In this document: piece after piece, positions 3,985 through 43,532 of the stretch
Layout: each line of letters opens with the position of its first letter
Numbering within the stretch: position 1 is the first letter of the stretch
From: Bacilli bacterium
GTDB lineage: Bacteria; Bacillota_I; Bacilli_A; ML615J-28; CAG-313
Reading direction: 5' to 3'
Assembly (NCBI GenBank): GCA_051872775.1
Contig: JBJEEE010000088.1
Location: 2,762-66,761, forward strand
DNA: 64,000 nt
Notes under the pieces: model-generated
What the model was told of the DNA's origin: nothing
The model's database searches: none
What the model saw: the letters and a program-made list of their open reading frames with translations, nothing else
Program-made: the position numbers and the translations under genes

Positions 3985-3996
3985 GAGGAATAACTT

Positions 3997-4788: not shown

Positions 4789-4794
4789 AAAAAC

Positions 4795-4830: not shown

Positions 4831-4846
4831 AGGAAATTTTTACTTA

Positions 4847-9480: not shown

Positions 9481-9538
9481 AGTTTTACTCCTTCCGCCAT
9501 GATTTTCTTAAACCATAGTAAGTTTATTTTACTTTAGT

Positions 9539-9585: not shown

Positions 9586-9627
9586 TGTTTTTAGAAAAAA
9601 AACGAGATTTCATAAGAAATCTCGTTT
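9586..9627 (-). terminator. Terminator of the giant gene
   Basis: AAACGAGATTTC-ATAA-GAAATCTCGTTT is a 12-bp perfect stem directly after the stop. On the minus strand it is followed by a T6 run. Confidence 0.75.
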
Positions 9628-9638: not shown

Positions 9639-12600
9639 TTAAATTTCGCCTTTAAATCCTTTAATAGTATTGATATAACTACTAATAATTGTATTGTAAT
9701 CTTCTTTTGATGCAAGTGGGTTAGATGCATTATATTGATTTGCAAGATCAGGAAGATATGTTTCAATATAAGTAGCAGCTTGAACTTCATTTAAGCCACC
9801 ATGATTAACCATAGTTTCTTTAGTTGCTTCATAAACGATTACCGCAAGCATTGGTCTTAGAATTACAGATTCATTCATATGTCTTAATAGTTTTTCAGTT
9901 TTTGCTGTTTCGAATGAATATAATGAACTTGCAATATCTGTACCATCGATTAATCCTAAATCACGTAAATCAGCAAGAGCATTAGTTAATGCTATTGTTT
10001 CATTAAATTCATCTTCTGAACTTAATGTGCCTAGTGGACGATTGAACTTACTAGATAGGATTGGATTTGTGCCACTTTCTAGTTTTGTAGCAATGACGCC
10101 ATCTTCACCACCAAAGCAACTAATATCAAATACATTACTTACAACAAATAATTGTAACATTTGACGTAATCCAACTTGATTTGCACCAGCAACTTGTGAT
10201 GGGAATAATCCAGAACCAGTTGATACTACATTTTCATATACTGTAATATCTGGGTATGTTGTGCCTAAATCCATTGTATAGATATCAGTAGCACCTTCTG
10301 AATCAAGTTCAAGGGCATTTGCGCAAGCAACAATTATTGCCATCTTAGTTAATTCTTCTTCAGTCCAGAACATTTCATCATAACCAGTATAATCAACTCT
10401 TGAAGTTGCATATTGTCTCTTGAATGCATCAGAGATCATTTCTGCAAGAACAAATGTCGATTTACCTGATTCATCAGAATTATTATTAACTGCATCAGAA
10501 ACAACACCTAAGATTACTTCACGCATAGATAATGCTTTAGATACGGCAATTAGAGTATCTGCAAGTTTAACATAGTCTTTGCTAGTTTCAATTACTACGT
10601 AATCAAAGTCACAAATCTTGTCAGTTGCAGGATCTAGATAAGATGCCATATTAACGATTACTTCTCTAACAGCGACAACTTCGTTATATGCAAGAGCATT
10701 ATCATCAGGGATTAATTCAGTTTTAATGCGAACATTTGAGTTTGGAACTGTAAAGTTAGATTGATCAATTAGTTTTGTTAACCAATATTTGTAATCAGCT
10801 TTTACAGCTTCAATACCATCTTTTCCATTTAATCCAAACATAACATCATATGCACTAAGTACATCATTAAATGTCATATTTGAAATTCCTTGAGAAATAA
10901 CAACATAGATTTCGAATAATTCTTCGAATTCTTCTGCCCATTTATCACGAGGAAGAGTATCAATGTCAATAATTCCTTGAGCATCAGCAGGTAAGTTATT
11001 ATCTACTTTAGTCTTGAATAATTCTTTAAACATTTCGCTTCCAACATAAGATTCAGATGCTTTATCAACAAAGGCAACGAACTTAGTTTGGATTGCACTA
11101 TTTTCAAACATTGAAGTTGTCATATTTTCAATATCGAAGTTAGGATCAGCACATAATGTAGCAAGAGCAGCACACATTTCAGTGAATGATGCAAATTCTT
11201 GATCCCAATCACTAACTACTGATAAATCGATTGATGAAGTATCAACGAATGATAATTTAGAAAGAATCATACTCATTACTGCTTCTTCATTTCCATCTAC
11301 AGCATGAAGAGCGAATAAGTTATCAAGTAATACATCAATATGACCATCTAATGCAGCAAAGTCTAAATCAGCTCCAAAGAAGTTAATATAAGCAGCTTCT
11401 TTCATAACTTTTAGAATTAATAGATAATCATCCATAGCTTGTTCATTAGTATATGAAGGATCATTTAGAGCTGTTAACATGAAGTCAAGAGCATCAGTTG
11501 TAGATGATACTTTGTTAATAACTTTTCTCATAACACGTTTCATATATAATTGAGCAAGTTTAGAATTTTCTAATACTGCACCATTATTAGCAACAGCAAG
11601 TAAGAATTCTTGTGTCATCATTGTTGATGGATCACTAATTGAAATATTTTGAAGTTCAGATTCAATGCCTCTTAAGAATGTTGTGATAATGCTTACTTCG
11701 TTAACGTAATCAACGTTAGCAGCTGCAAGTTCATCACGATCAAGATTAATCTTCATAGCAAACTTAAATGCGGCAGGAATTAAGTCATTTAATAAATCTT
11801 TAGTTACAGGACTAGTAACAACTAAATCAGCAAGAGCAACAATTGTGTCAACATCTTTATAATTAATTGTTCTTCTGAATAAGCCTAATGTTTCAACATA
11901 AGATACAATTTGGAATAAGTCAGGAAGAGCGACATTAACAAATTGAGAATTTGTCATTCCAGTAAACATTGCAAACTTACCATAATTTTCCGTTGCAACT
12001 TTTGTAGTTCCAACAATAACTGGCATAAATACTTGAGCAAGTAAGTCAGATTCAAGTGCTTTATTAACCAATGAAGTTACATCAGCTTGGAATACTGGGT
12101 CACTAACAATACTTAAGTCTTTATTCTTAATGTATGTTACATATGTTTTAACAAATGTAATTAATTGTTTAATTAATCCTTTAGCTACGCTAATTTCATT
12201 AGATGTGCTAGCAGCTTCATAATTTAAGCTTATAACACCGTATTCAGCAATATTTCTAACGAACTTATCGAAATACTTCTTATAAGAACGTAGATTTACA
12301 TTGTTGTAAATTACTGCAAATACTTTATCAGTTAATTCAGAATTTGTGAAATCAACACCATTATTGGAGAATGCACCCATTTCACTTAATGCTCTTAATG
12401 CAACAATAATATCATCACATAAACTATATACTTGTTCGTCTGTCTTTTCAGAGAAAGTAACATTAATCATACTAGATAATTTATTTGTAGCTTTTCTTAC
12501 AATAACAGGCATGAATTCTTTAGATGTTGTAGATTCAAAGAATAATTCAAGTACATCAATAGCAGCATTCATAAATTCAGTATTACCGAATAGATGAACA

Positions 12601-15600: not shown

Positions 15601-18600
15601 TGTTCAACAACACCAAATTCAATTAGTTTTCTTAAAGCTACAACTATTGATTTAACATCTTCTGTTACTTCATTATTGTCAACTTTATCAGTAAGATATG
15701 TTAAACTTAATCCGCTTGTTTCAAGTTTAGCAAGACCAAAATCAACAAGATCTTTTGATAAAACATTGAATGTAGCAAGGTTAGAGATTGCTGCAACTAC
15801 ATCAACTAAATTATTAGCATTTTCTGAAGTTGCATATTGTTCTTGAAGTTTGAATCCTCTAGCTTGTAAATCTTTAATATTGTCAATAGAAACTAAGTCT
15901 GTTTCAACTAAGAATTTATCTACAGCACTAACTAGTTCTTGGAATAAATCATTTTCTGCATCCCAGTCAACACCAACAAAGTCGCTTTCAGAAACTCTAA
16001 TGTCAGATTTTAGTGCATGTGCAAGACAATTTGCAAGTGATGCAGCCCATGCATTTCTATTTAAATTATAGATTCCAAGTGATGGAATTAAATCAATTAC
16101 AGGATTTAAGTATTCAACATTCAAGAATTGAAGTTGTTTTGTATTAATAATTTCGAATAAACCAAACTTACATAAAGGCTTAAACATTTGAACTAATACA
16201 TCAACATCATTCTTAACTACTTCCATTTGAAGTGATGAAGCTAAGAATAATAAATCTAAGTTAAAGTCATATGCCTTATTTATAGCAAGACAAACAACTT
16301 GAGGGAATAAGCATTCAACGCTATTGAAACTTAATACAAGTTTAATAGCATCAGCTATTAATGCTACGTTAGTATCAGTATAAGTTTCTTCTAAAGTGTG
16401 TTTCTTTTCATCTTTGAAGAATGATACAACTTCGCTATATTTGTTGAGGTTATTATTATCAAGGATTTCACCTAATTTCAATACTAATGATTGAAGAGTA
16501 ACATTATCTGATTTCCATTGTTCATCAGTTAATGAAATTACAGAGTAATCAATTTCTTGATCTATCTTCAATGCAGTAACGGCTTTATCAATTAGAATAT
16601 TTACCCAAGAATTTCTATATTTAGTGAATACTAATGCATTTTCTATTTCAGCAACAGCATTTGCAATATATTCTACTTCAATTGATGAAATATCTTTTGT
16701 ATCAATGTATTCTTTTACGCCAAACGCAAGAAGATTTTGAACGATATTTAGGATTGGAGAAACATCGTTTGCTAAATCAGATGATGCATATGAACCTTCT
16801 AAGAATGAAATATCATATCCAGCATCAGCGGCTTTAACTACAGCATAATGTAATACTTTAGGGAATACTACATTTACAGTATGAGTGCCGATTAAATTAG
16901 ATAGAACAACTTTAAGAGTTTCTAGATTATTATTGAAGATTTCTTCTAGATTGTCTTTATAAGTGCCTTGAGACATATAAACTTGAACTGCTGTTAAATA
17001 TGTTAAGCCTTGTTCTTCTAATAGATCACATAATGCCACTAAAGCATTTTGTAATTTTTGATTATCTTCTGCCCATTGTTCAGCTGTGATTGCATTAAAT
17101 TCAGATGCTTCAACACTAATTTCAAGTGATGCAAGTACTTTATTTAATCCAAGAGCTAACCAATTGCCACGAAGTTTACTATAAACATTAACTTCAGCTA
17201 ATTTTGCAACTATTTCAGATAGTGCAACTCTATCATATGATAAAACAGCAATATCAAATAAGAAGTCACGTACACCTAATTGAAGAGCTTTTCTTGCGAT
17301 TTCAACTACGCTTTGAACGTCTTCAACTAATTCAGATGAAGTAAATGTATCATTGTGCATTGCTTCTTTTAAGAAGTCAAGATCACTACCTGTAATCTTA
17401 TCAACACCCCATCTTGAGATGATAGGAAGTAATACTTTAAGGGTTTGTGCAGATATTAATGTATCTACTACATTAAGTGCTAATTCTACATTTTCATTCG
17501 TTACAAATTCTTGTTTTGTATAGTTCTTGCTTTCTACAAATTCTTTAACTTGAGTTGAAGATTCAAGACCTAATGTGTCTAATAGAGTTTGTACTTCAAG
17601 TAATGTATTATTAACTACAGTCATTTCATTTGATAGATCTAATCCTGCAAATGAATCTACTGTTACTCTTTCTTCGATCTTTAATGCTTCAAGTAATTTG
17701 TTAGATAATACTACTAACCAATTAGCATTAAAGTTAGAATATAATACTGTATTTTCTAATTCAAGAAGAGCTTGTCCAACATATTGTAATTCAATTGTTG
17801 AAAGTTGTTTTTCTTTGATGATTTCTTCAATGCCAAAGTCAACTAAGTTTTCAGCTGCATTTAGGACAGGAAGAACATCATTAGCTAAATCAACTGCATG
17901 ATAATTTCCTTCTAAGAATGAAATATCTACGCCAGCATTTTCAGCTTTTACTACAACGTAGTGTAATACTTTATCGAAGATTACATCTGTTGTATTTGTA
18001 TTTAATAGGTTAGAAATAATTTCGCTTAATAATTCTTTGTAACCTAATAATTCTTTATAATCAGGAGCACTTACGTAATTTACAATTGCACTCTTATATG
18101 TTAAGCCTAATCTTTCCATTAATTCAGCAACGCTAACTAAAGCATTTTGAAGTAATTGATTATCTTCTAACCATTGTGCATTTGTTAATACATCAAGTTC
18201 TTCTGGTGTAACATTAATTTCAAGAGCGCTTAAGGCTTTATTTAATCCTAGAGCAACCCAATCAGAATGAAGTTTATTGAAAATATGAATGTTTTCAATT
18301 TGACTTACGATTGTAGCTACAAGTCCGCCATCAATTGTTTCCATATCGATGTCAAAGATTGCATCAAATACGCCTAAAGCAACACAATTTCTAGCAATAC
18401 TAATAACTGTCTTAACATCTTCTACTAATTCTTCAGCAGTAAATGTATCATTGTGCATTGCTTCTTTTAAGAAGTCAAGATCACTACTTGCAATCTTATC
18501 AACACCCCATCTTGCGATTACAGGAAGCAATACTTTAAGGGTTTGCATTTGTTGAATATCTTCAACCGCATTTAAGACGATATCTAAAGTTTCATCAGTA

Positions 18601-24600: not shown

Positions 24601-26531
24601 TTAGTCTTATCATCACCTAATAGATTTAGTGTTAATACACTTTGAACAATTTCTTTCATTGCATCGATTGCTTCTTTGCTTTCGATATCCATTTGTTTTA
24701 AATCAAGAGATAAAACATTAATCTTATCGACTGCTAGTTTTGCAACTTCAATAATTGCATTGATGTCTTCTTTCCATTGTTCAATTGTTAAGTCTTTTAG
24801 ATTGATGATGTTTGCAAATTCAGTAAATCCGTTTTGTTCATTTGCTAAGTAGCTATCTACAGCAGATTGAGCAACAGGAATAAGAATATTGTTAAATACG
24901 GTCATTTCTGTTAAACGTTCTAATAGTTTAACTGTTACATCTGTTTTGTTAACAATTAATGATTCAACCAAGTCATTAACATTAGCATCTGTAATTTGTG
25001 CTAGATCAGTATATCCATATTCTTTAAAAATTGTGTAAACATCAACAAGACCATTTAGTTCTTCTTTCCAAGAAATATCACTTAAGTTTAAATTCTTAGG
25101 ATCATAATTTCCTGTAAGATTTTGTACTGCTTCAAGTTTAACACCTGTTTTAACTAAGATTGGAAGAAGAGTGTTAATGAATTCACCCTCGCAAAGAGCA
25201 TTGATAACTTGGTTTAAAACTTGTTCATTCATTGTTAAAACGTTGAAATCTTCAAGTGGGAATAAATCAAGTTTATATACTTCTTTAACTGTATCAAGGA
25301 TAGTTTCAACTTCTTTGTCCCAATCAAGGTCTCTTAATGCTAGGAATGCAGTTGTTTGCATTGCCTTATCAAGAGCAGCTTTTAAGAACTCAATTTCACT
25401 TGCATATTCAATCGCTACTGGCATTGCTTCTGGAAGCAACTTAGAATCTTTCAAAACGTCTAATGCTGCTGCAAGTTGTTCATCAGTCCATGTACCTACT
25501 TCGATATTTCCTTCAAGTGCATTAACTGCTTCAAGATAAACGATTAATTCTTGACGTAGTTTAATGTTTTGAGTTGAAGTATTGATACTAGCCATTGAAT
25601 CAAATAATAGCGTACTTAATGATTGTCCAAAGAAATATGAAGAGCTTTCTACAAATTTCCCAACAGCACTGTCTTTGTATTCATCAACAAAGTCAAATGC
25701 CATATCTACTGGACCATTTTGTTCTGCTACATTTTGTTGTGTTTGGTTACCTGTAACAAGATCAGAGATTAATTCTCTTGTTTCAGGAGTTGCAGTTTTC
25801 ATAATTGAATAAATGCCTGAAATAGGTGCAAATAGTAAGATAATTAAGAAAACACCTTTTAGAACACCTGCAACGGCACCCCATACGCGTTTCTTACTCT
25901 TCTTAGGCTCAGGTAGTTCTTCTTCAGATACAGTTACTACTGCATCATCAGCACCTTCCACACCTTTTAAGACAAGTATTGCATCGTCTGCTTCTTCGTT
26001 ATTAGCATTTTCTTCTGCTGATTCTTCCGAAGCATTTCCATCTGCAGCTTGTTTTTTAGCTTTGTGTTTCTTAACACCATGAATAATTAGTATCACAATG
26101 TGACTAATCAATCTGATGATAGGAGTAATAATTACTACTACAAGCGTGCTAACAACCAATAAAACGATTGTTGCGATGCAAGAGCAAAGATTATATACAA
26201 AGCTATATGTCTCTTTTCCTTCTACTAGTAATGCACTTAGGTTTAGTCCCTCTATTGATTTTAAGTAATCAAGAATAGTCTCCCAAACCGTTGCATCCTT
26301 TTGTGGCAAATTCAAAGTACTTCTAATTGTATCAACTAAACCACCACTGTAATTTAGTAATACACCAGAATTACCAAAAACAAGCCAAGCCAATACTAGT
26401 AAAATGATGAAGACAGCGATGCACGATAGTTCTCTTTTTAGACCTCCTAAAAAGCCCCAAAGTGCGAATAAGATTACTATTCCGAGCAATCCCAACCCGA
26501 GAATTAGTAATATCAGATTAAAATCCATCAT
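9639..26531 (-). CDS. Giant (5,630 aa) membrane-anchored acidic repeat protein. An N-terminal CvpA-like polytopic module is followed by a low-complexity acidic linker and a very long predicted alpha-helical region with tandem ~185-aa and ~366-aa repeats.
   Basis: A single uninterrupted ORF of 16,893 nt. The RBS AGAGGTG lies 5 nt before ATGATG. The N-terminus has 3-4 TM helices (LFALWGFLGGLKRELSCIAVFIILLVLAW ... KKSKKRVWGAVAGVLKGVFLIILLFAPISGIY). The body is rich in D, E, L, V, I and N and carries recurring motifs (KxYTxAQYVTDENV and ExWxxxxxNxLxxALKIEERVTVDSFAGL). Its own promoter and terminator flank the gene. Confidence 0.85.
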   Translation of the reverse strand: MMDFNLILLILGLGLLGIVILFALWGFLGGLKRELSCIAVFIILLVLAWLVFGNSGVLLNYSGGLVDTIRSTLNLPQKDATVWETILDYLKSIEGLNLSALLVEGKETYSFVYNLCSCIATIVLLVVSTLVVVIITPIIRLISHIVILIIHGVKKHKAKKQAADGNASEESAEENANNEEADDAILVLKGVEGADDAVVTVSEEELPEPKKSKKRVWGAVAGVLKGVFLIILLFAPISGIYSIMKTATPETRELISDLVTGNQTQQNVAEQNGPVDMAFDFVDEYKDSAVGKFVESSSYFFGQSLSTLLFDSMASINTSTQNIKLRQELIVYLEAVNALEGNIEVGTWTDEQLAAALDVLKDSKLLPEAMPVAIEYASEIEFLKAALDKAMQTTAFLALRDLDWDKEVETILDTVKEVYKLDLFPLEDFNVLTMNEQVLNQVINALCEGEFINTLLPILVKTGVKLEAVQNLTGNYDPKNLNLSDISWKEELNGLVDVYTIFKEYGYTDLAQITDANVNDLVESLIVNKTDVTVKLLERLTEMTVFNNILIPVAQSAVDSYLANEQNGFTEFANIINLKDLTIEQWKEDINAIIEVAKLAVDKINVLSLDLKQMDIESKEAIDAMKEIVQSVLTLNLLGDDKTKNDLVLAAIIKFNLLDVDDLYVTSADGTSKVSIFENVNWTTDGDNIGEIDTIKNILEIYKQFVLLDEVNMKDLNIDFIALLDNEDGVDILVSILEELVDSDLTLSLIDPAVNKYLLPITNEFDDDNLVKDIFNNISNKEMAEEIIKIVKAIKDAQTLGLFDVAKNGLGSLKYSETDALINIINTIFDSKILDGVEGRVIRIIFKATKILDIEKGLLDNINFDGEQEMLVNFIHAIENVLQDPNFVLFDEAGNVTLDLEYITQPEIFSQLMSGVEIVLGTLEKDENGNFVETSGSKLVEALLPNIMSTYVIKSIPEEFKGLVEIVDLENLDSALLASDVRRLTYIARQLVEMDLQTIFVNGSIVYTDKLENVYNILDALLGMEMLKPCGNEVFAWIINYVSGKFLAQYNIEEVTAEDFAGVDWAVEAETAKALITQIIEFLEVNNLESTAELIDFINEKGYLTTSFVTTENANRVLEILNTALELNTIEAIAPIAFQVVVNQLVSNNVISKDFWEGSLTGEELVEDLYSVTEIAEILVNDIDFVEMWRASFQGEAIVLPEDTAVNEIIDKLFSLNLVKGYENELVQFALEKYLPKNDVISVESFNVQSITNWDNEVATIKGVVSIVLNILAVNEFENVAQITDFINNVKNSSNVVEGLKAYITDNNISLVAGLLDEVVNSQLVANILPDVVSYGLEQLAKQVIDLQFINDLTAEELQADVHKLVEIINVLVEERIACFIVNKTVEVESKNVYGLLETAKAVVGKINELNLVTKHENELMSTLINKAFALAKLTDFTLSASDLENVDWNDEFTSIQQILTIVQNFAADNHLVVYRDVTKYLDEVKADVKVIVTEVNGRHIVSAVKELANMGTVKALLPQVLSFGIDKAYEAGYDIRFVDEAKLTNDEIANDIVTFANIVIDLIDLGAVKLYKNETIGNLNEAVVKDIANQLANVNILAKFAGEWTAFVVNFALDKLNIKDFNVRYNAENFAGLSDEQWTNDTEKLGNALFAVVSALDELFPAGYSIESIKQFISNKEYSNYDIFTNTLIDCVVDALSNVLAINLIDPIVNDFVSFGVDKLANVALFKDIDVQFIKEIATREVLSHDVINLGEIAKTMIEFGLFEYLETKTLQKVELDKLNPIFDQIDQMELFQVNRETWMEFIANTVMTAAKLDVRYTAEDFATITDEIATESLQTVKSVVSQLAELLAYWQLESLEEITSFVSGKGYTSATYITDEAVISITEIVDTITTIVPLQSMLPKLAQYGLSKVPEKYDLSFVEPYLEDGTLSGSVLAEDIRTIMAIVVDGVNFGALDLVYKVYEEQPFEVKFEYISSIIEKIDTLHVLEIDYNSWISFASNIGFELAKSVVRVQPEDFAYMTNDAWHEDFATLASIVNSIGEIAKNNNLTFYDDINLFIKEKGYTSAQYVTDENVSDILSVVDTIIGINFIDPYLVKGLSSLIDYVIIGNEALPDMKFVSTAIDNHEYISSDIKDDLRTVIEMVRNVLDFGAIEIYFTQQLSVINVEPIQNIIANINELHLFHLSEAKWFENIFTQVFKALKLDENKYHVSANEYITMNRAEWDQDFESLSHIVGLIGELLDESSITSSSELTEFINNKYYTLAQYVTDENVLVIAEIIETLGGIKALSPALDDLVRYALSEKVNIANVDLSFLVDALENRELTGEMLSSDIQSLASIIKDAVEIGVIDYVYFNKLPELNYDLIKNILVTATGLNTIVVAIDNWAALGFNQLFKALKIENTVSAEDFAMMNATTWSNDVNTIIEIVDRLEALLKANDLNTIEDVQSFFKDKLYTLAQYANNENALALVEIVDLVGTIRVIEPALPVLAKFGVSKVSTDKFDVSFLESHFESDLTGEKLSADIRTVAAMLKEIVEFGTIDYFFYQELDQIQIVKLQNVLTMLNELNIYAVDKESWLVLTVNQLLAALNVEERVTVDSFAGLNPDNEIMHLVDALGEVDALLRALNIVSTNDLKQFIQDKGYINGQYVTDETLDIVLNAVEDIQQMQTLKVLLPVIARWGVDKIASSDLDFLKEAMHNDTFTAEELVEDVKTVISIARNCVALGVFDAIFDIDMETIDGGLVATIVSQIENIHIFNKLHSDWVALGLNKALSALEINVTPEELDVLTNAQWLEDNQLLQNALVSVAELMERLGLTYKSAIVNYVSAPDYKELLGYKELLSEIISNLLNTNTTDVIFDKVLHYVVVKAENAGVDISFLEGNYHAVDLANDVLPVLNAAENLVDFGIEEIIKEKQLSTIELQYVGQALLELENTVLYSNFNANWLVVLSNKLLEALKIEERVTVDSFAGLDLSNEMTVVNNTLLEVQTLLDTLGLESSTQVKEFVESKNYTKQEFVTNENVELALNVVDTLISAQTLKVLLPIISRWGVDKITGSDLDFLKEAMHNDTFTSSELVEDVQSVVEIARKALQLGVRDFLFDIAVLSYDRVALSEIVAKLAEVNVYSKLRGNWLALGLNKVLASLEISVEASEFNAITAEQWAEDNQKLQNALVALCDLLEEQGLTYLTAVQVYMSQGTYKDNLEEIFNNNLETLKVVLSNLIGTHTVNVVFPKVLHYAVVKAADAGYDISFLEGSYASSDLANDVSPILNIVQNLLAFGVKEYIDTKDISSIEVEYIANAVAEIENALVFTKYRNSWVNILIDKAVTALKIDQEIDYSVISLTDEQWKSDNVTLQSLVLKLGEILDNNNLNKYSEVVSFFKDEKKHTLEETYTDTNVALIADAIKLVLSFNSVECLFPQVVCLAINKAYDFNLDLLFLASSLQMEVVKNDVDVLVQMFKPLCKFGLFEIINTKQLQFLNVEYLNPVIDLIPSLGIYNLNRNAWAASLANCLAHALKSDIRVSESDFVGVDWDAENDLFQELVSAVDKFLVETDLVSIDNIKDLQARGFKLQEQYATSENANNLVDVVAAISNLATFNVLSKDLVDFGLAKLETSGLSLTYLTDKVDNNEVTEDVKSIVVALRKLIEFGVVEQMFTKAEINYNAKATLYEAIEKVLNLNVLVNNGNNVVLSIFDKLGIDASRAVGTVVFREEYDSIVTILDSVFTIFENYKITTYEEIAKVVSIIAGKGLRIDKSFNENIQALADIIDVLYKDDLFAFVIMPISEKYLSSEKLAGLADLHNIYSNVSELNSDLHNVYVVLSNIQSLNIYDCLIGNADYPFDRTFNFTNIINNLFTLNYFNNPGRMDAFVNGLDNLITSVDLSSVNGNNISLADDADDIVEMVKNISAVLTNPDFPIKNKEDIDNKISVSINFFLRQENLDLELAAIKNYMNTTLYGETGAAILIVILPLLKNVLNDYWTALDLDNYSAEMINHDTPYIMAIIETLVNLDYNAIGDGSLAYSALESDVDAIIDNLVELQLLDGHYNDLVALLLRDFVYGKTFGNVTIEQDAFNIENVDFEHDLIVAKDIFRAFIELMASEGNNTMREVSDYFVSFDSKAFLNNDAAMNKVAEIVEYVAQLTIIEQNALALYNTFAVPSLGDNVKYVDYRSATNEELYADLVKVPEVIRLAVAMNVFGIIDGETIDYVGADGLMADHVEQLLNILASTNYIELHFAKIINRLSNKFEGLRTYGASYETIDVAGDANKVAQAYRVLVPYLSSSEFPVKTINDFGKLLTKQTIIDAQGYGEYLVDAYEILAQTSVAPYVVPTVVNKAKEFVGGRLQSIVNVLTTDGLTLEQLTNDVLLSITLVKDVYESRIYRFVLDKDLTFPTSEVAVEIVDTALSMNIISTKFNELVKAVFVEFNIDTANIDFAAFDCETEKQIIKAVVSETFDILAECELTTLSAVKAEIKDLINTVKVSRRSFARKVVDLLSNVQKERFVRIIETIAESQLFVETFIPVYNKVLSKYGSLFGTYEEYLSLEGYTKAALDSDVEIFAQAVRALFESKLHQVYTAKAQLSDSQMAAAQTSVRLFGQLQILELKKQAAVDILEKLVKVDLSDIDVNTIDVEFDFNLLAEALPMLCTVIRDSNLRFSVHLFGNTEFMNAAIDVLELFFESTTSKEFMPVIVRKATNKLSSMINVTFSEKTDEQVYSLCDDIIVALRALSEMGAFSNNGVDFTNSELTDKVFAVIYNNVNLRSYKKYFDKFVRNIAEYGVISLNYEAASTSNEISVAKGLIKQLITFVKTYVTYIKNKDLSIVSDPVFQADVTSLVNKALESDLLAQVFMPVIVGTTKVATENYGKFAMFTGMTNSQFVNVALPDLFQIVSYVETLGLFRRTINYKDVDTIVALADLVVTSPVTKDLLNDLIPAAFKFAMKINLDRDELAAANVDYVNEVSIITTFLRGIESELQNISISDPSTMMTQEFLLAVANNGAVLENSKLAQLYMKRVMRKVINKVSSTTDALDFMLTALNDPSYTNEQAMDDYLLILKVMKEAAYINFFGADLDFAALDGHIDVLLDNLFALHAVDGNEEAVMSMILSKLSFVDTSSIDLSVVSDWDQEFASFTEMCAALATLCADPNFDIENMTTSMFENSAIQTKFVAFVDKASESYVGSEMFKELFKTKVDNNLPADAQGIIDIDTLPRDKWAEEFEELFEIYVVISQGISNMTFNDVLSAYDVMFGLNGKDGIEAVKADYKYWLTKLIDQSNFTVPNSNVRIKTELIPDDNALAYNEVVAVREVIVNMASYLDPATDKICDFDYVVIETSKDYVKLADTLIAVSKALSMREVILGVVSDAVNNNSDESGKSTFVLAEMISDAFKRQYATSRVDYTGYDEMFWTEEELTKMAIIVACANALELDSEGATDIYTMDLGTTYPDITVYENVVSTGSGLFPSQVAGANQVGLRQMLQLFVVSNVFDISCFGGEDGVIATKLESGTNPILSSKFNRPLGTLSSEDEFNETIALTNALADLRDLGLIDGTDIASSLYSFETAKTEKLLRHMNESVILRPMLAVIVYEATKETMVNHGGLNEVQAATYIETYLPDLANQYNASNPLASKEDYNTIISSYINTIKGFKGEI
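15400..21000 (-). repeat. In-frame tandem coding repeats inside the giant gene (period ~550-590 nt, arranged as ~1098-nt double units)
   Basis: The motif G/K-Y-T-x-A-Q-Y-V-T-D-E-N recurs at about 20900, 20320, 19730, 19150, 18590 and 17500, and in degenerate form further on. Near-identical nucleotide blocks lie at 17341-17455 vs 18439-18553 and at 17650-17675 vs 18748-18773, an offset of 1098 nt. The boundaries are approximate. Confidence 0.6.
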
Positions 26532-26566
26532 AATTCACCTCTTTTATGTATGACTTTACTTACTTA

Positions 26567-26594
26567 TTGTACCAAATTTTTTTTATTTTTGCAA
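26567..26594 (-). promoter_or_regulatory. Candidate sigma-A promoter of the giant gene, with a homopolymeric A/T tract in the spacer
   Basis: Minus-strand sequence TTGCAA - AAATAAAAAAATTTGG - TACAAT, with a 16-17 nt spacer containing an A7 run. It lies about 35 nt upstream of the RBS. Confidence 0.45.
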
Positions 26595-26756
26595 GTGATT
26601 ATTCTTGTAATGAGAATTATTTACTAAATTTTTAATAATTACTAGTAAAAATTTTTTAGTATTTTTGTTTTTTTCCTTTTAAAAATAGGAAATATTCTAC
26701 AAGCAATTTTTGAATTATAATTATTACATTTTATTGTTTAAATTACGTATATATGC

Positions 26757-26790
26757 AAAAAAAGAAGATAGTTCATATCTTCTTTTTCTC
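26757..26790 (-). terminator. Terminator of the 992-aa paralogue gene
   Basis: AGAAGATA-GTTCA-TATCTTCT hairpin. On the minus strand it is followed by TTTTTTTGC. Confidence 0.6.
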
Positions 26791-26793
26791 ATA

Positions 26794-29772
26794 TTAAATT
26801 ATACCAAGAAGCTCTAAAACGGACTGAGCTACTTCGGAATTATTTAATTCATCTGCTAGTTCTGGATGAGCGTTAATATCGAAGTTTTCTGGATCTTGAC
26901 TGTATTCTGCGTATACATTTTCTATGGTTGTTGCTTCTTGAGTAAAGTCTATTGCGTCAATATCAGCTGCATCTATTTCAAGATATTCAACAATCATATC
27001 TTTAGCGAGTTCGTTTTCTTGGACTTGACTTAACACATCACTTACTGAACTAATAATCGAGTCATCCGCATTATTTATATCAAAATTAGATATATTACGA
27101 TTCAAATCTATTAGTGAAGCAATACTATTTGCCACTTCTTTTAAAGTTGCTGGTTGTGTAAAATCATATTTATTAGTACCATCACTGTTTTTTGGCATAA
27201 TGTTTAGATTGTCTGGTCCAAGCATTTCTTCAAGAATACCACCAATGATTTTAGAGGCAATAACGGAGTCGCTTGCAAGAATCATTATTTGTGCAACCTT
27301 ATCTCCTGTAATTGTTTGATAACTTTCACTACCAGTAAACGATTCTTGACATTCATCAATTATGCTAAATATTACATTTATTTCATTAGCCCAACCATTT
27401 TCTTTTATTTTGGCTTTATCATCATCAGTTATTACAATTTCATATCCTGTTGAAGCGATTCCCTTCTCAATAATCGGATAAATCGCATTACCAAAAATAG
27501 ATGATTCGCCTAATGCAGTTACTAAATTTACTAGTTTTGTTTCATTTTCTTCATTTCTTTCATCTAGTAGACTACTAAAATCAAGATTTTCAATATCACC
27601 AAAATCTAGTACCGCCGTAAATACATTTGCAAGTTTTTGAGGTTCTGTATTCCAATCTATTTCATCATAATTTAATACAATACCCATCTCATCAAGTGCT
27701 TGTTTTAGACCAGTAAAATCAACGATATAATCTAAAATTTTATTTTCTTTACCAGATATTATTCTAAGACTGAAAATATTATTTAATAGTGAAGAAATGT
27801 TTTCGGAAGTAATGTTAAGTGGTTCTGTAGAATCTACTACATTCATTTCTACAAATAAATCAAATATAGAGAAAAACTTTTCTACTTCTTGTGAAAACTC
27901 ATCTTTAGATAGTGTTTTTAGAAAAGCAAAATCAAATAATTCTTTTATTTCAAGTGGCATAGAATCACCTAATAACTCATCAACATTAGCATCAAAGAAA
28001 TTAACAAGAACACCAACAAACAAAGTAGAATTTGCTATTTCATTTAATAATGGTTTAAATACATATTGATTATTGTCATCTTTTTGTAATAAGGACTCAA
28101 ACATTGGAGTTCCATTATCCATAGCTGATTTTAAATGATGATTATATAGATATAAGCCTTGTTCTAATATTTTTACAATGTTTTCTTTTTCATTAGGCCA
28201 ATCCGGAACGATTCCATTCATCAATACATCATAATCAAAGGAAGGACTATTAAGGGTTTTAAGTCCCCATTCCATTAATGATGATTCATTGCCTTCGATA
28301 ATTTTTAATTCTAATACTACTGTTAATGCACGAGATAGTGATTCAACACTTTGATCACTTGTTAAATCTAGTTTTGCATTGTTACTAATCACATCTTGTA
28401 TATTTGTATTTTTGACTAAATCTTGATATGCTATTAATATATTCTTAACATCATATCTTAATGTATCAATCATTTTTTCCGTTGTTAGTGCTTCTTTTAA
28501 TCCTGACATTTCTTCAGGTAAGCTTTCTTTCAATTGATCGGTTAATTTAGGGATGAAAATTTCACTAATTAATTGTGATTCTAATAATTTGTCAATAACG
28601 TTATTTATTGCATTTGGTAGGTTTTCGTATTCAAGTGCTGTTTCCATATGATCTAAATCTAGCACTAAACTTGAACAATCGTTAATCGCAATTTGTGCTA
28701 CTTCTAATATAGTTTTAATTTCTTTATCAATATCAAGATCTTTAATAATCGTGATGACTTCATTACTAATTGTTGGGTTTCCATTCTCATCTTTTGCATT
28801 TTCAAAAGACATGATAATTGCATCTTTAATCAATGGTGAGAATTGATATATTAGTGATGTATTTGATAAAAAAGAATTAATTAAGTCTAAGTCATTTTGA
28901 GATAATTTAGAAAAATCTACCTTATTATTGCTTTGCACATCTTTCATAATGTTATTTGCAATTGGTACAAGTGGAAGCACTAGTATAACTTCTTTAACTA
29001 AATTAGTTGTTGTTTTATCAGTTTTTATCGACATTATTTGGCCAAGATATTTGGCAGGTAAGGTTATTCCTGTTTTTTTATCTGCACCAATTTTAGTTAT
29101 TTGATATGTTTTGCTGCTACTCAATGCTCGTTGAATATCTTCATATGATATTTCAGTTTCACCAGATACTGTTTCTACTGCACCAGTATTATTTTCTAAA
29201 TACTTTACTTCATTAATCGTTACATCAGCTAGGTTTATAAAACCAAAAATTGGGAAATAAGCAACAACAAATACAATTAGAAAATTAACAAACGCAATCC
29301 CCATACCGATAAAGCGAGCTGATGTTTTTACTTTAGATTTTTTGTCATTAGGCACTTCTAAATCTTTGCTTATAAAACTCTTTAAGATTGAACTTAAAAT
29401 AAGTTTATTAATTAATGTAAAAATTGCACATACAAACAAACCAGTATAATATACTACTTGTTTCAAACCAGCAGATATTAAAGCTGTTAGTAACTCTACT
29501 GATTCTTCACTAAATGTAAATTGTTCATTTGTAAAAGAACTAATAATATAATCAACTATAGATATTCCATCAATTCTTATATTTGTCATTGCTTTTGATA
29601 TTGGGTTTAATAGTAAAAGTAAAATGATGAAAGGAATTAAGAATGAAATTAAATTTACTAGTTTTTTTCTCCATCCCGCAATAAAGCCGGATAAAAGATG
29701 GCATATTAAAGCAAATAAAACGATTATATCAAGCACAACCAAGGCTGTTTTAATTATACTTATCAGATTCAT
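26794..29772 (-). CDS. Large (~992 aa) membrane-anchored acidic protein, a paralogue of the giant protein (shared N-terminal membrane module)
   Basis: The track ORF starts at 29829. An in-frame ATG at 29770-29772 (MNLISIIK...) is preceded by a perfect GGAGG at 6-nt spacing. The N-terminus VLFALICHLLSGFIAGWRKKLVNLISFLIPFIILLLLL ... KKSKVKTSARFIGMGIAFVNFLIVFVVAYFPIFGF parallels that of the giant protein. The remainder is rich in D, E, N, I and L. Confidence 0.75.
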   Translation of the reverse strand: MNLISIIKTALVVLDIIVLFALICHLLSGFIAGWRKKLVNLISFLIPFIILLLLLNPISKAMTNIRIDGISIVDYIISSFTNEQFTFSEESVELLTALISAGLKQVVYYTGLFVCAIFTLINKLILSSILKSFISKDLEVPNDKKSKVKTSARFIGMGIAFVNFLIVFVVAYFPIFGFINLADVTINEVKYLENNTGAVETVSGETEISYEDIQRALSSSKTYQITKIGADKKTGITLPAKYLGQIMSIKTDKTTTNLVKEVILVLPLVPIANNIMKDVQSNNKVDFSKLSQNDLDLINSFLSNTSLIYQFSPLIKDAIIMSFENAKDENGNPTISNEVITIIKDLDIDKEIKTILEVAQIAINDCSSLVLDLDHMETALEYENLPNAINNVIDKLLESQLISEIFIPKLTDQLKESLPEEMSGLKEALTTEKMIDTLRYDVKNILIAYQDLVKNTNIQDVISNNAKLDLTSDQSVESLSRALTVVLELKIIEGNESSLMEWGLKTLNSPSFDYDVLMNGIVPDWPNEKENIVKILEQGLYLYNHHLKSAMDNGTPMFESLLQKDDNNQYVFKPLLNEIANSTLFVGVLVNFFDANVDELLGDSMPLEIKELFDFAFLKTLSKDEFSQEVEKFFSIFDLFVEMNVVDSTEPLNITSENISSLLNNIFSLRIISGKENKILDYIVDFTGLKQALDEMGIVLNYDEIDWNTEPQKLANVFTAVLDFGDIENLDFSSLLDERNEENETKLVNLVTALGESSIFGNAIYPIIEKGIASTGYEIVITDDDKAKIKENGWANEINVIFSIIDECQESFTGSESYQTITGDKVAQIMILASDSVIASKIIGGILEEMLGPDNLNIMPKNSDGTNKYDFTQPATLKEVANSIASLIDLNRNISNFDINNADDSIISSVSDVLSQVQENELAKDMIVEYLEIDAADIDAIDFTQEATTIENVYAEYSQDPENFDINAHPELADELNNSEVAQSVLELLGII

Positions 29773-29839
29773 ATTTTCCTCCATAATGTGTATTACTATT
29801 ATTATAACTTGATTAGTGTTTTTTTTCAAGTATTTCTAC

Positions 29840-31084
29840 TTATTCTTTCTTACATTTAATTCCTATTTTACATAATTTCCCCATTATATCATCATATCCT
29901 CTAAATATGTATTCTGCTTGATTAATAATAATCTGTTTCCCTGATATTACTCCCGCAACAATCATAGCAAATCCGCATCTTAAATCGTTTGCTTGTACCA
30001 TTCCACTGATTAATGGTGATGGATTAATGGTAATTAAACCTTGATTCATTTCGATACTTGCTTTCATTTTACTTAGTTCTTTTATATGAGAGTTACGAGA
30101 TGGATATATGGTTTCATTTATCTTTGATGTATCATTTCCATTTAACAAAACTGTTGATAATATTGGTTGTAAATCAGTAGGGAAATAAGGATATGGGCCT
30201 GTTGATATATTGATGTTTTTTATATTTTCTGGAGACTTAATCTCTATAGAATCCTTTAAAATGGTAGTTTCTCCACCTAGTTTATTAATCACTTCTATAA
30301 CGTTTTCTAAATGACTAACATTAACTTTATTAATTTTAATCTGAGAATTAGGTTTTGCCATTGCAAGAAACATATAGCTTCCTGCTTCTATACGATCAGG
30401 CATAATCGAGTATGTTGTTTTATGCAGTTCTTTTACTCCTTCAATCACGATAGAACGCTTATCAATAAACTGTATTTTAGCACCCATCGATTGCAAGAAA
30501 TGAATTACGTCTATTACCTCTGGTTCAATTGCAATATTAGATAGAGTTGTTTTCCCTTTTATCAAGACCGTTGATAGTATAGCATTGATGGTACCTCCTA
30601 CTGTTACTGTACTGAATGTATAGTTTATTGGGCGAAGTTTTCTTTTTTTAAAATATATTTTTTCTTTTTCTGTTATATCTAATCCCATTTGTTTATATAA
30701 TTTTAAGTGAAAATCAATTGGTCTTTTTCCGAAATTACATCCTCCAGGATAAAGAGTTGCAAAGTTATTTTTACGATGTATTAAGGGGGAGATGAGATAA
30801 TATGATGCTCTTAGTTTTGATACAAAGCAACTATCTAAATCCTTTTTAATTCTGTTAGCTCTAATTACTAGTTTACTTTCCACATAGTTATAGTTTACAC
30901 TTACTCCCAAATCATCTAAAATTCTGATCATACTTATAACATCAGTAATGAGAGGAACATTATATAGAGTTATCTCTTCTTTTGATAGAAGTGAAGCGGC
31001 TATTATTGGTAAACAAGCGTTTTTAGAACCACTTATTTCTATTTCACCTTTTATGATACTTGGGCATTTAATTTTTATTTTCAA
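29840..31084 (-). CDS. murA: UDP-N-acetylglucosamine 1-carboxyvinyltransferase
   Basis: The protein is 414 aa. The N-terminus KIKCPSIIKGEIEISGSKNACLPIIAASLL matches the MurA N-terminus (GAKNAVLPI). It has a TTG start with an AAAGGA RBS. Confidence 0.8.
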   Translation of the reverse strand: MKIKIKCPSIIKGEIEISGSKNACLPIIAASLLSKEEITLYNVPLITDVISMIRILDDLGVSVNYNYVESKLVIRANRIKKDLDSCFVSKLRASYYLISPLIHRKNNFATLYPGGCNFGKRPIDFHLKLYKQMGLDITEKEKIYFKKRKLRPINYTFSTVTVGGTINAILSTVLIKGKTTLSNIAIEPEVIDVIHFLQSMGAKIQFIDKRSIVIEGVKELHKTTYSIMPDRIEAGSYMFLAMAKPNSQIKINKVNVSHLENVIEVINKLGGETTILKDSIEIKSPENIKNINISTGPYPYFPTDLQPILSTVLLNGNDTSKINETIYPSRNSHIKELSKMKASIEMNQGLITINPSPLISGMVQANDLRCGFAMIVAGVISGKQIIINQAEYIFRGYDDIMGKLCKIGIKCKKE

Positions 31085-43524: not shown

Positions 43525-43532
43525 TATAAAAA

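What the first reader, a model, noticed from the sequence alone, without database searches (positions are those of the whole stretch)
9639..29772. Tandem pair of paralogous genes: a 5,630-aa giant and a ~992-aa protein, both with a CvpA-like N-terminal membrane module
Both ORFs open with the same roughly 250-aa architecture. That architecture is two TM helices, a loop, a TM helix, a lysine-rich stretch (KKSKKR / KKSKVK) and a final TM helix carrying the motif (F/Y)(A/F)PI(S/F)G. The first helices (LFALWGFLGGLKRELSCIAVF in the giant, LFALICHLLSGFIAGWRKK in the paralogue) resemble the CvpA (colicin V production) family core. The remainder of each protein is extremely acidic (rich in D and E), has few aromatic residues and appears predominantly alpha-helical. 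In the giant, this region was expanded by tandem repeats into a single 16.9-kb ORF, about 26% of the window. I recognise no catalytic motif, no LPxTG motif and no known adhesin domain. I cannot name a described family combining a CvpA-type anchor with a multi-kilodalton acidic helical array. The pair sits among cell-envelope genes (murA immediately upstream, galU and an LRR surface protein downstream). This is the strongest candidate in the window for an undescribed system.
Basis: partly seen in the sequence, partly recalled or inferred. Interest (0 to 1): 0.8.

Follow-up and report, generated by a model that had tools for sequence, protein, structure and literature searches.

The report
Giant membrane-anchored helical-repeat protein pair
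Two neighbouring genes in an uncultured gut bacterium encode a 627-kDa protein and a 111-kDa relative that share a CvpA-type four-helix membrane anchor followed by an acidic chain of helical-bundle repeats; the family is real, conserved in about 25 related species and matched no described family in the resources searched, and it most likely forms a long rod on the cell surface.

Summary
Both ORFs are at the stated coordinates: the giant at 9639-26531(-), 5,630 aa, and the paralogue at 26794-29772(-), 992 aa.

- **Not an artefact.** An independent assembly is 99.2% identical over 13 kb with no gaps. dN/dS is 0.12-0.16. Twenty-four full-length orthologue clusters exist (3,857-6,731 aa).
- **N-termini are homologous.** Pairwise BLASTP shows nothing, but profile-profile comparison gives probability 99%, E 3.5e-18.
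- **CvpA link is remote but supported.** 18 of 21 paralogue orthologues hit Pfam Colicin_V over profile positions 1-125 of 144. At least two reach the gathering score. The window's own proteins do not.
- **The repeat unit is about 185 aa, not 366.** About 25 copies cover residues 480-5050, and weak copies sit in the paralogue.
- **Distribution.** Only 73 of 1.84 billion representative proteins carry the repeat. All named sources are uncultured Bacilli MAGs, mostly from animal and human guts, with record labels such as Mollicutes or Acholeplasmatales.
- **Synteny.** murA lies directly upstream in 23 loci.

Best reading: a membrane-anchored, outward-facing rod or coat protein pair, analogous but not homologous to staphylococcal Ebh/Embp. 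Function and topology are inferred, not shown.

The parts
9639..26531 (-). Giant gene: 5,630 aa, 627 kDa, pI 4.3
   Evidence: ORF list and translation. Composition. Intact orthologues of 3,857-6,731 aa. dN/dS 0.16 over the first 3,246 codons against L007.
25791..26531 (-). Giant residues 1-247: CvpA-like four-helix membrane module with a disordered, K-flanked acidic TM3-TM4 loop (residues 154-214)
   Evidence: Hydropathy and charge analysis. AlphaFold helices 3-28, 30-51, 106-162 and 213-243, with 165-206 below pLDDT 50. hhalign to the paralogue family gives probability 99%. Direct Pfam Colicin_V score is only 10.5 bits, and 2 of 26 orthologues hit at E<=0.01.
25092..25790 (-). Giant residues 248-480: conserved helical domain next to the membrane (motifs YFFGxSFS and LKDSKLLPExMPVAIE). 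Residues 201-400 are the best conserved stretch of the protein.
   Evidence: Alignments A1, A3 and A8. Conservation scan against 24 orthologues. Helical in the AlphaFold model. Part of the region shared with the paralogue.
11373..25088 (-). Giant residues about 482-5053: array of about 25 copies of an all-helical repeat of about 185 aa
   Evidence: Chunk-against-self BLASTP shows offsets in multiples of about 190 aa. An iterated HMM finds 25 hits, the central 13 nearly full-length at 1e-41 to 1e-60. Alignment A6.
16611..18821 (-). Residues 2571-3307: the youngest duplication, two 366-aa double units about 48-50% identical.
   Evidence: DNA copies spaced 1,098 nt apart at 76-84% identity over 54-216 nt. 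AlphaFold model of residues 2571-2936: pLDDT 89.8, pTM 0.81, 22 helices.
9642..11372 (-). Giant residues 5054-5630: variable C-terminal tail with no anchor motif
   Evidence: Poorly conserved among 24 orthologues. No LPxTG and no hydrophobic end. No Pfam hit.
26794..29772 (-). Paralogue gene: 992 aa, 111 kDa, pI 4.3
   Evidence: Orthologue directly upstream of the giant in most loci. dN/dS 0.12.
29215..29772 (-). Paralogue residues 1-186: CvpA-like four-helix membrane module
   Evidence: Pfam Colicin_V 20.6-20.9 bits, residues 14-184 on profile positions 1-126 of 144. 18 of 21 orthologues hit, and two scanned members reach the gathering score. Family invariants are D15, G33, G156, P174 and G177.
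27283..28767 (-). Paralogue residues about 336-830: three or four weak copies of the same helical repeat
   Evidence: Iterated HMM hits at 350-465, 441-515, 566-666 and 704-829. hhalign A6 against A9: probability 90.8%, E 1.2e-6, at 336-493. BLASTP paralogue 541-743 against giant 902-1102, E 3e-7.
9600..9627 (-). Intrinsic terminator-like hairpin (12-bp stem plus T run), starting 12 nt after the giant's stop codon
26751..26794 (-). AU-rich hairpin with A and U tracts, starting at the last base of the paralogue's stop codon. Possible partial terminator between the two genes.
   Evidence: Sequence. Fold gives -17.1 kcal/mol, z -6.2. Missed by the G+C-dependent scanner.
26566..26594 (-). Promoter-like site (TTGCAA, 17 nt, TACAAT, with TG extension) about 35 nt upstream of the giant's ATG, followed by the RBS AAAGAGGTG
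   Evidence: Consensus match only.
29801..29829 (-). Promoter-like site (TTGAAA, 17 nt, TATAAT; 11 of 12 matches) between murA and the paralogue's ATG
   Evidence: Consensus match only.
29840..31084 (-). murA (UDP-N-acetylglucosamine 1-carboxyvinyltransferase), the conserved upstream neighbour
   Evidence: TIGR01072, 400.8 bits against a cut-off of 392.7. Directly upstream of the pair or the giant in 23 loci.

Best explanation
**Proposal**
- The two genes encode a lineage-specific pair of cell-envelope proteins.
- Each is held in the cytoplasmic membrane by a divergent CvpA-type module of four transmembrane helices.
- The N-terminus and the TM2-TM3 loop face outside. The lysine-flanked TM3-TM4 loop faces inside. 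TM4 acts as an uncleaved signal-anchor that places everything after it outside the cell.
- Outside, a conserved helical domain next to the membrane is followed by tandem helical-bundle units of about 185 aa. The giant has about 25 units and the paralogue three or four.
- These units pack into a continuous acidic rod of the order of 100 nm for the giant.
- I propose the giant forms a long surface fibril or coat layer, acting as a spacer, shield or contact surface. The short paralogue may associate with it through the shared membrane module.
- This would be an envelope-decoration solution in gut Bacilli. Related orders are reported to lack sortases.

**Shown**
- The genes are real and under selection.
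- The shared four-helix module is remotely related to CvpA.
- The repeat architecture is present, and a repeat pair gives a confident all-helical model.
- The family is narrowly distributed, and murA is a conserved neighbour.

**Inferred**
- The orientation in the membrane.
- The rod shape and length.
- Association between the two proteins.
- Any role at the cell surface.
For: **Real genes**
- Independent assemblies carry intact orthologues.
- L007 is 99.18% identical over 13,064 nt with no gaps.
- dN/dS is 0.12 and 0.16.
- There are no near-identical long DNA repeats that could mislead an assembler.

**Shared anchor**
- hhalign of A3 against A4: probability 99.0%, E 3.5e-18.
- Colicin_V hits in 18 of 21 paralogue orthologues, with two scanned members at or above the gathering score.
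- Four transmembrane helices by hydropathy and by AlphaFold.

**Orientation**
- The flanks of the TM3-TM4 loop are K/R-rich in both proteins: 9 K/R against 5 D/E in the giant, 5 against 3 in the paralogue.
- The segment after TM4 is acidic: 2 K/R against 8 D/E in the giant, 1 against 5 in the paralogue.
- CvpA is predicted to be four-pass with a periplasmic C-terminus of variable length (bioRxiv 10.1101/2020.09.25.314492).
- Colicin_V modules sit N-terminal to a trypsin-like protease domain in eight actinobacterial proteins (PMC2605481).

**Rod**
- About 25 repeats.
- The double-unit model has pLDDT 89.8 and pTM 0.81 and is all helix.

**Variable length with a conserved base**
- Orthologues range from 3,857 to 6,731 aa with 13-27 repeat matches.
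- The first 1,000 residues are the best conserved. The last 400 are poorly conserved.

**Context**
- murA, then the paralogue, then the giant is conserved down to about 40% MurA identity.
- No G+C-rich terminator lies between murA and the end of the giant, and a strong one follows the giant.
- RFN20 and ML615J-28 lack srtA/B sortases (PMC10868615).
- A giant membrane-anchored helical-bundle rod has precedent in Bacillota: Embp/Ebh (PMC7587433).
Against: - No experimental or dedicated-predictor topology exists. The orientation rests on charge bias and on analogy to a CvpA topology that is itself only predicted.
- Export of about 5,400 residues after an internal signal-anchor is demanding.
- The protein is very acidic and has 23 Cys. 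This would also suit a cytoplasmic protein.
- No expression, localisation or binding data exist.
- No adhesin, enzyme or wall-binding domain was found to support a surface role.
- The order-level taxonomy of the window organism was not determined, so the sortase argument is indirect.
- A hairpin and a promoter-like site lie between the two genes. Co-transcription, and hence stoichiometric pairing, is therefore not established.
- Two loci (L021, L023) have the giant without an adjacent paralogue.
Confidence: 0.5

Rival explanations
1. Same architecture, but the main role is specific adhesion. The rod would present binding surfaces for host mucus or matrix, dietary particles or other microbes, as Embp repeats bind fibronectin. 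It would not mainly act as a structural coat.
For: - Embp and Ebh helical-bundle repeats are themselves the adhesive units (PMC7587433).
- Most source samples named in the record titles are animal or human gut.
- Repeat number and the distal C-terminus vary between species, as expected for a surface under diversifying pressure.
- A BspA-type LRR_5 protein is a conserved near neighbour.
Against: - No known adhesin or lectin domain was found.
- dN/dS of 0.16 between strains shows purifying rather than diversifying selection over the first 3,246 codons.
- The conserved linkage to murA is not explained.
Confidence: 0.2
2. The CvpA-like module is the working part, as a channel, transporter or envelope-stress sensor. 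The repeat array is its extracytoplasmic sensor or ruler. It would report the state or thickness of the wall and be functionally coupled to peptidoglycan synthesis (murA).
For: - The N-terminal 400 residues are the best conserved.
- CvpA is linked genetically to the extracytoplasmic stress response. Its variable C-terminus was proposed to bind or sense periplasmic partners (bioRxiv 10.1101/2020.09.25.314492).
- murA is adjacent in 23 loci.
- Every locus with upstream sequence has murA, in a group of lineages where wall loss is frequent.
Against: - CvpA's own molecular function is unknown.
- 600 kDa of repeats is far more than a sensor needs.
- Conserved gene order may be inherited rather than functional.
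- No regulatory domain is present.
- The co-occurrence of the giant with peptidoglycan genes across whole genomes was not tested.
Confidence: 0.15
3. Opposite orientation. The repeat array is cytoplasmic and forms a membrane-tethered internal scaffold or cytoskeleton-like element.
For: - There is no cleavable signal peptide.
- pI is 4.3, and 23 Cys are scattered along the protein.
- All-helical bundles resemble cytoplasmic rods such as talin and spectrin.
- Avoiding export of 5,400 residues is energetically simpler.
Against: - Charge bias around TM3 and TM4 in both paralogues points the other way.
- CvpA is predicted to have its C-terminus outside.
- With four helices and a K-rich TM3-TM4 loop, a cytoplasmic C-terminus would put that loop outside.
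Confidence: 0.13
4. Not a functional gene: an assembly artefact, a decaying pseudogene or a chance open frame in AT-rich DNA.
For: - Two metagenomic assemblies (L001, L002) show the giant split by a frame change.
- 30% G+C DNA is stop-rich, so this is weak support at best.
Against: - A 16.9-kb open frame in 30% G+C DNA cannot arise by chance.
- 24 full-length orthologue clusters exist.
- Another sample is 99.2% identical with no indels.
- dN/dS is 0.12-0.16.
- L015 shares its N-terminus and upstream gene layout with L001 and reads through the point where L001 breaks.
- No long near-identical DNA repeats are present.
Confidence: 0.02

Closest known systems
CvpA / Colicin V production protein family (Pfam PF02674), including fusion proteins with an N-terminal CvpA module such as the actinobacterial Colicin_V-trypsin proteases
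   Same: - Four transmembrane helices.
- A near-full-length match to the Pfam profile (positions 1-125 of 144) in most paralogue orthologues.
- The family invariants are one Asp and three Gly, echoing the conserved Asp plus three Gly reported for CvpA.
- A variable C-terminal extension predicted to be outside the membrane.
- Use of the module at the N-terminus of a larger extracytoplasmic protein.
   Different: - The window's own proteins score below the Pfam gathering threshold (20.9 and 10.5 bits against 29.3).
- The TM3-TM4 loop is expanded: about 60 disordered acidic residues in the giant.
- The C-terminal extension is 800 to 5,400 residues of helical repeats, not tens of residues or a protease domain.
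- CvpA's own function is unknown, so the relationship gives an anchor and a topology, not a mechanism.
Ebh (Staphylococcus aureus) and Embp (S. epidermidis) giant surface proteins
   Same: - Bacillota origin and 0.6-1 MDa size.
- Tens of tandem repeats of 125-185 aa made of helical bundles.
- The repeats form a rigid elongated rod, measured for Embp and inferred here.
- Membrane-anchored rather than sortase-anchored.
- Acidic (from my own knowledge for Ebh/Embp).
   Different: - Ebh and Embp have an N-terminal YSIRK export signal and a C-terminal single transmembrane segment. Here the anchor is an N-terminal four-helix CvpA-like module, and there is no YSIRK.
- The units here have about 11 helices, not two three-helix bundles.
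- There is a conserved short paralogue upstream.
Talin rod and spectrin-type helical-bundle arrays
   Different: - These are eukaryotic cytoplasmic proteins.
- The resemblance is in shape only.
Giant surface 'leg' and 'crank' proteins of Mycoplasma mobile (Gli349, Gli521); from my own knowledge, not tested here
   Same: Very large membrane-anchored surface proteins encoded side by side in a Mollicutes-related lineage.
   Different: - No homology was detected in any search.
- Those proteins are not built from this repeat.
- There is no evidence of motility genes here.

Membership tests
CvpA / Colicin_V (PF02674) | Score at or above the Pfam gathering threshold (29.3 bits) on the protein itself | tested here: not met
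   Window paralogue scores 20.6-20.9 bits (E about 4e-4). Window giant scores 10.5 bits (E 0.62).
CvpA / Colicin_V (PF02674) | Family-level relationship: orthologues reach the threshold and the match spans the whole domain | tested here: met
   - 18 of 21 paralogue orthologues hit at E<=0.01, best 4.6e-9.
- L019 scores 29.6 bits and L032 scores 31.7 bits, covering profile positions 1-125 of 144.
- Giant N-termini are linked to these by hhalign at probability 99.0%, E 3.5e-18.
- Only 2 of 26 giant N-termini hit Pfam directly.
CvpA / Colicin_V (PF02674) | Four transmembrane helices | tested here: met
   Four hydrophobic segments in both proteins. AlphaFold helices 3-28, 30-51, 106-162 and 213-243 in the giant.
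CvpA / Colicin_V (PF02674) | C-terminus outside the cytoplasmic membrane | tested here: inconclusive
   Charge bias supports N-out and C-out in both proteins. No dedicated topology predictor or experiment was available. The CvpA topology is itself a prediction.
CvpA / Colicin_V (PF02674) | Conserved Asp and three Gly in the membrane module | tested here: inconclusive
   Paralogue-family invariants are D15, G33, G156, G177 and P174. The number and type agree with the report, but I did not align them residue by residue to bona fide CvpA sequences.
Ebh/Embp-type giant adhesins | FIVAR and GA repeat modules, and DUF1542 | tested here: not met
   No such Pfam hits in the giant, the paralogue or two distant orthologues.
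Ebh/Embp-type giant adhesins | N-terminal YSIRK export signal and C-terminal transmembrane anchor | tested here: not met
   No YSIRK motif and no C-terminal hydrophobic segment. The anchor is N-terminal.
Ebh/Embp-type giant adhesins | Tandem helical-bundle repeats forming an elongated rod | tested here: inconclusive
   Helical-bundle repeats are predicted with high confidence. The elongated shape is inferred from pTM 0.81 for a unit pair and was not measured.
Sortase-anchored (LPxTG) surface proteins | C-terminal LPxTG sorting signal | tested here: not met
   No LP.[TSA]G anywhere in either protein.
Bacterial lipoproteins | N-terminal lipobox with Cys | tested here: not met
   No lipobox in the first 300 residues of either protein.

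The most novel reading that the evidence does not exclude
The pair would be a previously unrecognised envelope device. A CvpA-type membrane module, acting as sensor or channel, would be mechanically coupled to a rod of about 100 nm that spans or measures the wall. It would be genetically tied to murA and would tune peptidoglycan synthesis in lineages on the evolutionary path between walled Bacilli and wall-less Mollicutes. If so, it would also give the first handle on what CvpA-type modules do.
Probability: 0.1. Interest if true: 0.85.

Novelty: new variant of a known kind. Interest (0 to 1): 0.55.

Why it matters
- **Scale.** At 627 kDa this is probably among the largest proteins in these small genomes. 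It takes 26% of the window and is kept under purifying selection across about 25 species-level MAGs, mostly from animal and human guts. The cells clearly invest heavily in it.
- **No match found.** It has no Pfam or NCBIfam family, no solved relative and no name in any source searched.
- **Biological setting.** These organisms are uncultured Bacilli whose record labels (Mollicutes, Acholeplasmatales, Anaeroplasma) place them near orders that straddle the walled/wall-less transition. Related orders are reported to lack sortases, so how such cells build and decorate their surface is an open question.
- **A new anchoring combination.** A CvpA-type anchor carrying a giant helical rod is a way of attaching a surface structure that I did not find described. 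It extends the known uses of the poorly understood CvpA module.
- **A tractable target.** The repeat is a well-predicted fold unit of about 185 aa with no specific PDB match, suitable for structural and binding studies.
- **Limit.** All functional statements remain inference. The finding may turn out to be 'another giant surface protein'.

Tried and rejected
1. **Pairwise BLASTP of the two proteins.** The N-termini do not align. The only match is in the repeat region (E 3e-7). Profiles were needed.
2. **First self-BLAST attempts.** They returned only the identity hit. Chunked queries were needed.
3. **Alignment of overlapping triple units, A5.** It mis-registered on the identical overlaps and was discarded. 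Non-overlapping double units (A7) were used instead.
4. **Third homologous-protein search, with the C-terminal 630 aa.** It returned nothing, not even the orthologue from the 99%-identical strain (L007). I read this as a limit of the word index with giant proteins, not as absence. The search was wasted.
6. **afdb50 fold library.** It was unavailable, so no comparison with AlphaFold models of bona fide CvpA proteins could be made.
8. **PDB sequence searches.** Nothing significant.
10. **Literature searches.** No description of this family. The survey of huge proteins (PMC11573180) has no occurrence of 'Mollicutes', 'Tenericutes', 'Bacillota' or 'Colicin' in its main text.
11. **Rejected readings.**
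   - Sortase-anchored adhesin: no LPxTG.
   - Lipoprotein: no lipobox.
   - Ebh/Embp homologue: no FIVAR or GA.
   - Alternative genetic code splitting the gene: the frame is open under table 11.
   - Mobile or phage origin: the neighbours are housekeeping genes (murA, rpmE, aspA, lysS-type tRNA synthetase, ftsH-type protease), and G+C is uniform at about 30%.
Full report
**1. What is there**

The window carries, on the minus strand, a 5,630-aa ORF (9639..26531, ATG start). Immediately upstream of it in the direction of transcription is a second ORF, 26794..29829. For the second gene, the ATG at 29772 (992 aa) is the likely start for two reasons:
- Called orthologues are 992 aa long.
- An 11-of-12 match to a sigma-70 promoter lies at 29829-29801, inside the mechanical extension.

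The giant is 627 kDa with pI 4.3, and the paralogue is 111 kDa with pI 4.3. D+E is 15.2% against K+R 7.2% in the giant. Neither protein has an LPxTG, YSIRK or lipobox motif.

**2. Is it real?**

Yes, on four grounds.
- **Independent assembly.** L007, from another sample, is 99.18% identical over 13,064 nt with 107 mismatches and no gaps. The gene called there is 5,629 aa.
- **Other intact giants.** An NCBI-deposited contig carries 5,264 aa and an ENA contig 4,443 aa. In all 25 species-level genomes found, the giant ORF runs open to the end of the fetched locus, more than 1,800 to 2,400 aa. A profile search of 1.84 billion representatives returned 24 full-length clusters of 3,857-6,731 aa.
- **Selection.** dN/dS against L007 is 0.12 for the paralogue and 0.16 for the first 3,246 codons of the giant.
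- **No assembly trap.** The longest direct DNA repeat is 216 nt at 77% identity, and Tandem Repeats Finder finds nothing relevant.

Two assemblies (L001, L002) split the giant by a frame change. L015 shares its N-terminus and upstream gene layout with L001, yet reads through that point. Those breaks therefore look like assembly or sequencing errors.

**3. The N-terminal module**

Both proteins start with four hydrophobic helices. AlphaFold, with a 20-row alignment, places them at 3-28, 30-51, 106-162 and 213-243 of the giant. The loop 165-206 is disordered, and residues 248-458 form a helical domain (pLDDT 74, pTM 0.67).

Homology between the two N-termini:
- Pairwise BLASTP does not align them.
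- A profile of 26 giant N-termini against a profile of 21 paralogue N-termini gives hhalign probability 99.0%, E 3.5e-18, over 290 columns. The match covers the membrane module and the domain next to it.

Relationship to CvpA (Pfam PF02674, gathering score 29.3 bits):

| Protein set | Result |
|---|---|
| Window paralogue | 20.6-20.9 bits |
| Window giant | 10.5 bits |
| Paralogue orthologues | 18 of 21 hit at E<=0.01, best 4.6e-9 |
| L019 and L032 (paralogue orthologues) | 29.6 and 31.7 bits, profile positions 1-125 of 144 |
| Giant orthologues | 2 of 26 hit at E<=0.01 |

The paralogue-family invariants are D15, G33, G156, P174 and G177. This echoes the 'one aspartate and three glycines' reported as nearly invariant in CvpA. 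The module is therefore a divergent CvpA-type domain. Membership is shown at family level, not for the window proteins individually.

**4. Topology (inferred)**

- In both proteins the TM3-TM4 loop is flanked by Lys and Arg: KKHKAKK...KKSKKR in the giant, KKSKVK in the paralogue.
- The TM2-TM3 loop and the first residues after TM4 are acidic.
- By the positive-inside rule this gives N-out and C-out.
- This is the topology predicted for CvpA: four-pass, with a periplasmic C-terminus of variable length.
- Colicin_V modules are already known at the N-terminus of trypsin-like proteases in Actinobacteria.
- TM4, with its positive N-flank, looks like an uncleaved signal-anchor.
- I could not run a dedicated topology predictor.

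**5. The repeat array**

- Chunked self-comparison shows offsets in multiples of about 190 aa from residue about 940 to 3,660. The strongest pair sits at an offset of 366 aa (48% identity), which is a duplicated double unit.
- An iterated HMM extends the array to 25 hits between residues 482 and 5053. The thirteen central copies are nearly full-length, at 1e-41 to 1e-60. It also finds three or four weak copies in the paralogue.
- Profile-profile comparison of the unit with the paralogue family gives probability 90.8%, E 1.2e-6, at paralogue residues 336-493. The short protein is therefore a miniature of the giant.
- AlphaFold of one double unit (residues 2571-2936, 7-row alignment) gives pLDDT 89.8 and pTM 0.81, with 22 helices and no strands.
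- Sequence searches of the PDB, Pfam and NCBIfam find nothing for the repeat. Two distant orthologues also have no Pfam domain.

**6. Distribution and context**

- Only 73 of 1.84 billion representative proteins match the repeat at E<=1e-3. One of them, P0075, is an unrelated leucine-rich-repeat protein. The rest are giants or their fragments.
- Every full-length member starts with the same membrane module.
- All 25 genome hits are uncultured Bacilli MAGs. Where the record titles name a source (Hadza, rabbit 'Lapin', goat caecum, water-deer rectum, chicken-derived bins) it is an animal or human gut. The taxonomic labels vary: Mollicutes, Acholeplasmatales, Acholeplasmataceae, Anaeroplasma, 'Staphylococcus sp. 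CAG:324', Staphylococcaceae, Erysipelotrichaceae and one 'Prevotella'.
- murA is directly upstream in 23 loci, at MurA identities down to 39%. It is confirmed here by TIGR01072 at 400.8 bits against a cut-off of 392.7.
- The paralogue lies between murA and the giant in most loci.
- Exceptions: L021 and L023 have no paralogue there. L001 and L015 have a Big_2 ORF inserted between paralogue and giant. L003 has an amino-acid ABC transporter inserted.
- Within the window no G+C-rich terminator separates murA, the paralogue and the giant, and a 12-bp-stem terminator follows the giant.
- An AU-rich hairpin (-17.1 kcal/mol, z -6.2) and an extended -10 promoter-like site lie between the paralogue and the giant. 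The transcript structure is therefore open.
- Downstream come an L31 leader and rpmE, then an ABC-F ATPase.
- The window also encodes Spore_YabQ, consistent with a walled, possibly sporulating organism.
- A published survey reports that RFN20 and ML615J-28 lack sortases. It also reports that these orders and the Anaeroplasmataceae mix walled and wall-less species (PMC10868615).

**7. Conservation pattern**

Against 24 orthologues, the first about 1,000 residues are the best conserved, with a peak at residues 201-400 (TM4 plus the adjacent domain). The repeats are moderately conserved. The last about 400 residues are poorly conserved. Length varies nearly two-fold between species. This is the pattern of a conserved base carrying an expandable shaft.

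**8. Interpretation**

- The best-supported reading is a pair of membrane-anchored, outward-facing helical rods. The giant would be of the order of 100 nm if each unit contributes several nanometres, as the 170-aa Embp F-repeat does at 7 nm. This length is my inference.
- The closest working analogue is Ebh/Embp of staphylococci. These are giant, membrane-anchored rods of helical bundles. There is no homology, and the anchor is at the opposite end and of a different type.
- What the rod does (coat or spacer, adhesin, or wall sensor coupled to murA) cannot be decided with these data. I rank the generic surface-rod or coat role first, then specific adhesion, then a wall-sensing device, then a cytoplasmic scaffold.
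- The artefact or pseudogene reading is excluded.

**9. Verdict**

- This family matched no described family in the resources searched, and the domain combination was not found described either. It fits within the known kind 'giant repetitive envelope proteins', hence 'new variant of a known kind'.
- Interest is moderate (0.55). It is a large, conserved, unnamed investment by a poorly understood gut lineage, and a new use of the enigmatic CvpA module. There is no functional evidence yet.

Noticed in passing
window 9259-9518 (-): A 73-aa rpmE gene (ribosomal protein L31; NF000612 at 106.9 bits) is preceded by an L31-Firmicutes leader (RF03156, 34.4 bits against a gathering score of 33.3). A promoter-like site lies at 9567-9539. 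This, not the ABC-F gene, is the giant's true downstream neighbour.
   Followed up: partly
window 26532-26793 (-): The spacer between the paralogue and the giant holds an AU-rich hairpin (26751-26794, -17.1 kcal/mol, z -6.2) that the G+C-dependent terminator scan missed. It also holds an extended -10 promoter-like site (26594-26566). The two genes may therefore be transcribed partly independently.
   Followed up: partly
L021 4590-6004 and L023 4617-6004: In two rabbit-gut MAGs, murA is directly followed by the giant with no paralogue between them. I did not check whether the paralogue is lost or lies elsewhere in those genomes.
   Followed up: no
L001 3127-4392, L015 4445-5710, L003 1719-4250: Insertions between the paralogue and the giant in some species. 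L001 and L015 carry a 421-aa ORF with a weak Big_2 hit. L003 carries a three-gene amino-acid ABC transporter.
   Followed up: no
L001 about 6470-6709 and L002 about 3175-3181: Two metagenomic assemblies split the giant by a frame change. L015 shares its N-terminus and upstream layout with L001 and is open across the same point, so these are probably assembly or sequencing errors rather than pseudogenes.
   Followed up: partly
window 34656-38528 (-); L004 1230-5036; L005 6199-7323: A 1,290-aa BspA-type leucine-rich-repeat protein (LRR_5, E 1e-206) is followed by a HAAS/DUF4097 protein (38889-40868). Both keep their position near murA and the pair in related genomes. This may be a second surface protein of the same neighbourhood.
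   Followed up: no
window 43453-44176 (-): A Spore_YabQ gene (43721-44176) lies next to two tRNA genes (43453-43525 and 43536-43617). This suggests the organism retains sporulation genes, although relatives carry 'Mollicutes' labels.
   Followed up: no
L018 (JAMPDF010000003.1): This contig is labelled 'MAG: Prevotella sp.' but carries the same murA, paralogue and giant arrangement as the MAG labelled Anaeroplasma (L016). The bin label is probably wrong or the bin is contaminated.
   Followed up: no
giant residues 154-214 (window 25890-26072) and orthologues P0020 and P0030: The presumed cytoplasmic TM3-TM4 loop is acidic, disordered and variable in length. It is about 60 aa here and about 130 aa in some orthologues. 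Lys/Arg clusters are kept at both ends.
   Followed up: no
paralogue residues about 790-992 (window 26797-27402): The paralogue family has its own conserved C-terminal region: invariants E797, M830, L847 and Y957, and the motif KYDFT. The giant has no counterpart and Pfam gives no hit. It could be a paralogue-specific functional domain.
   Followed up: no
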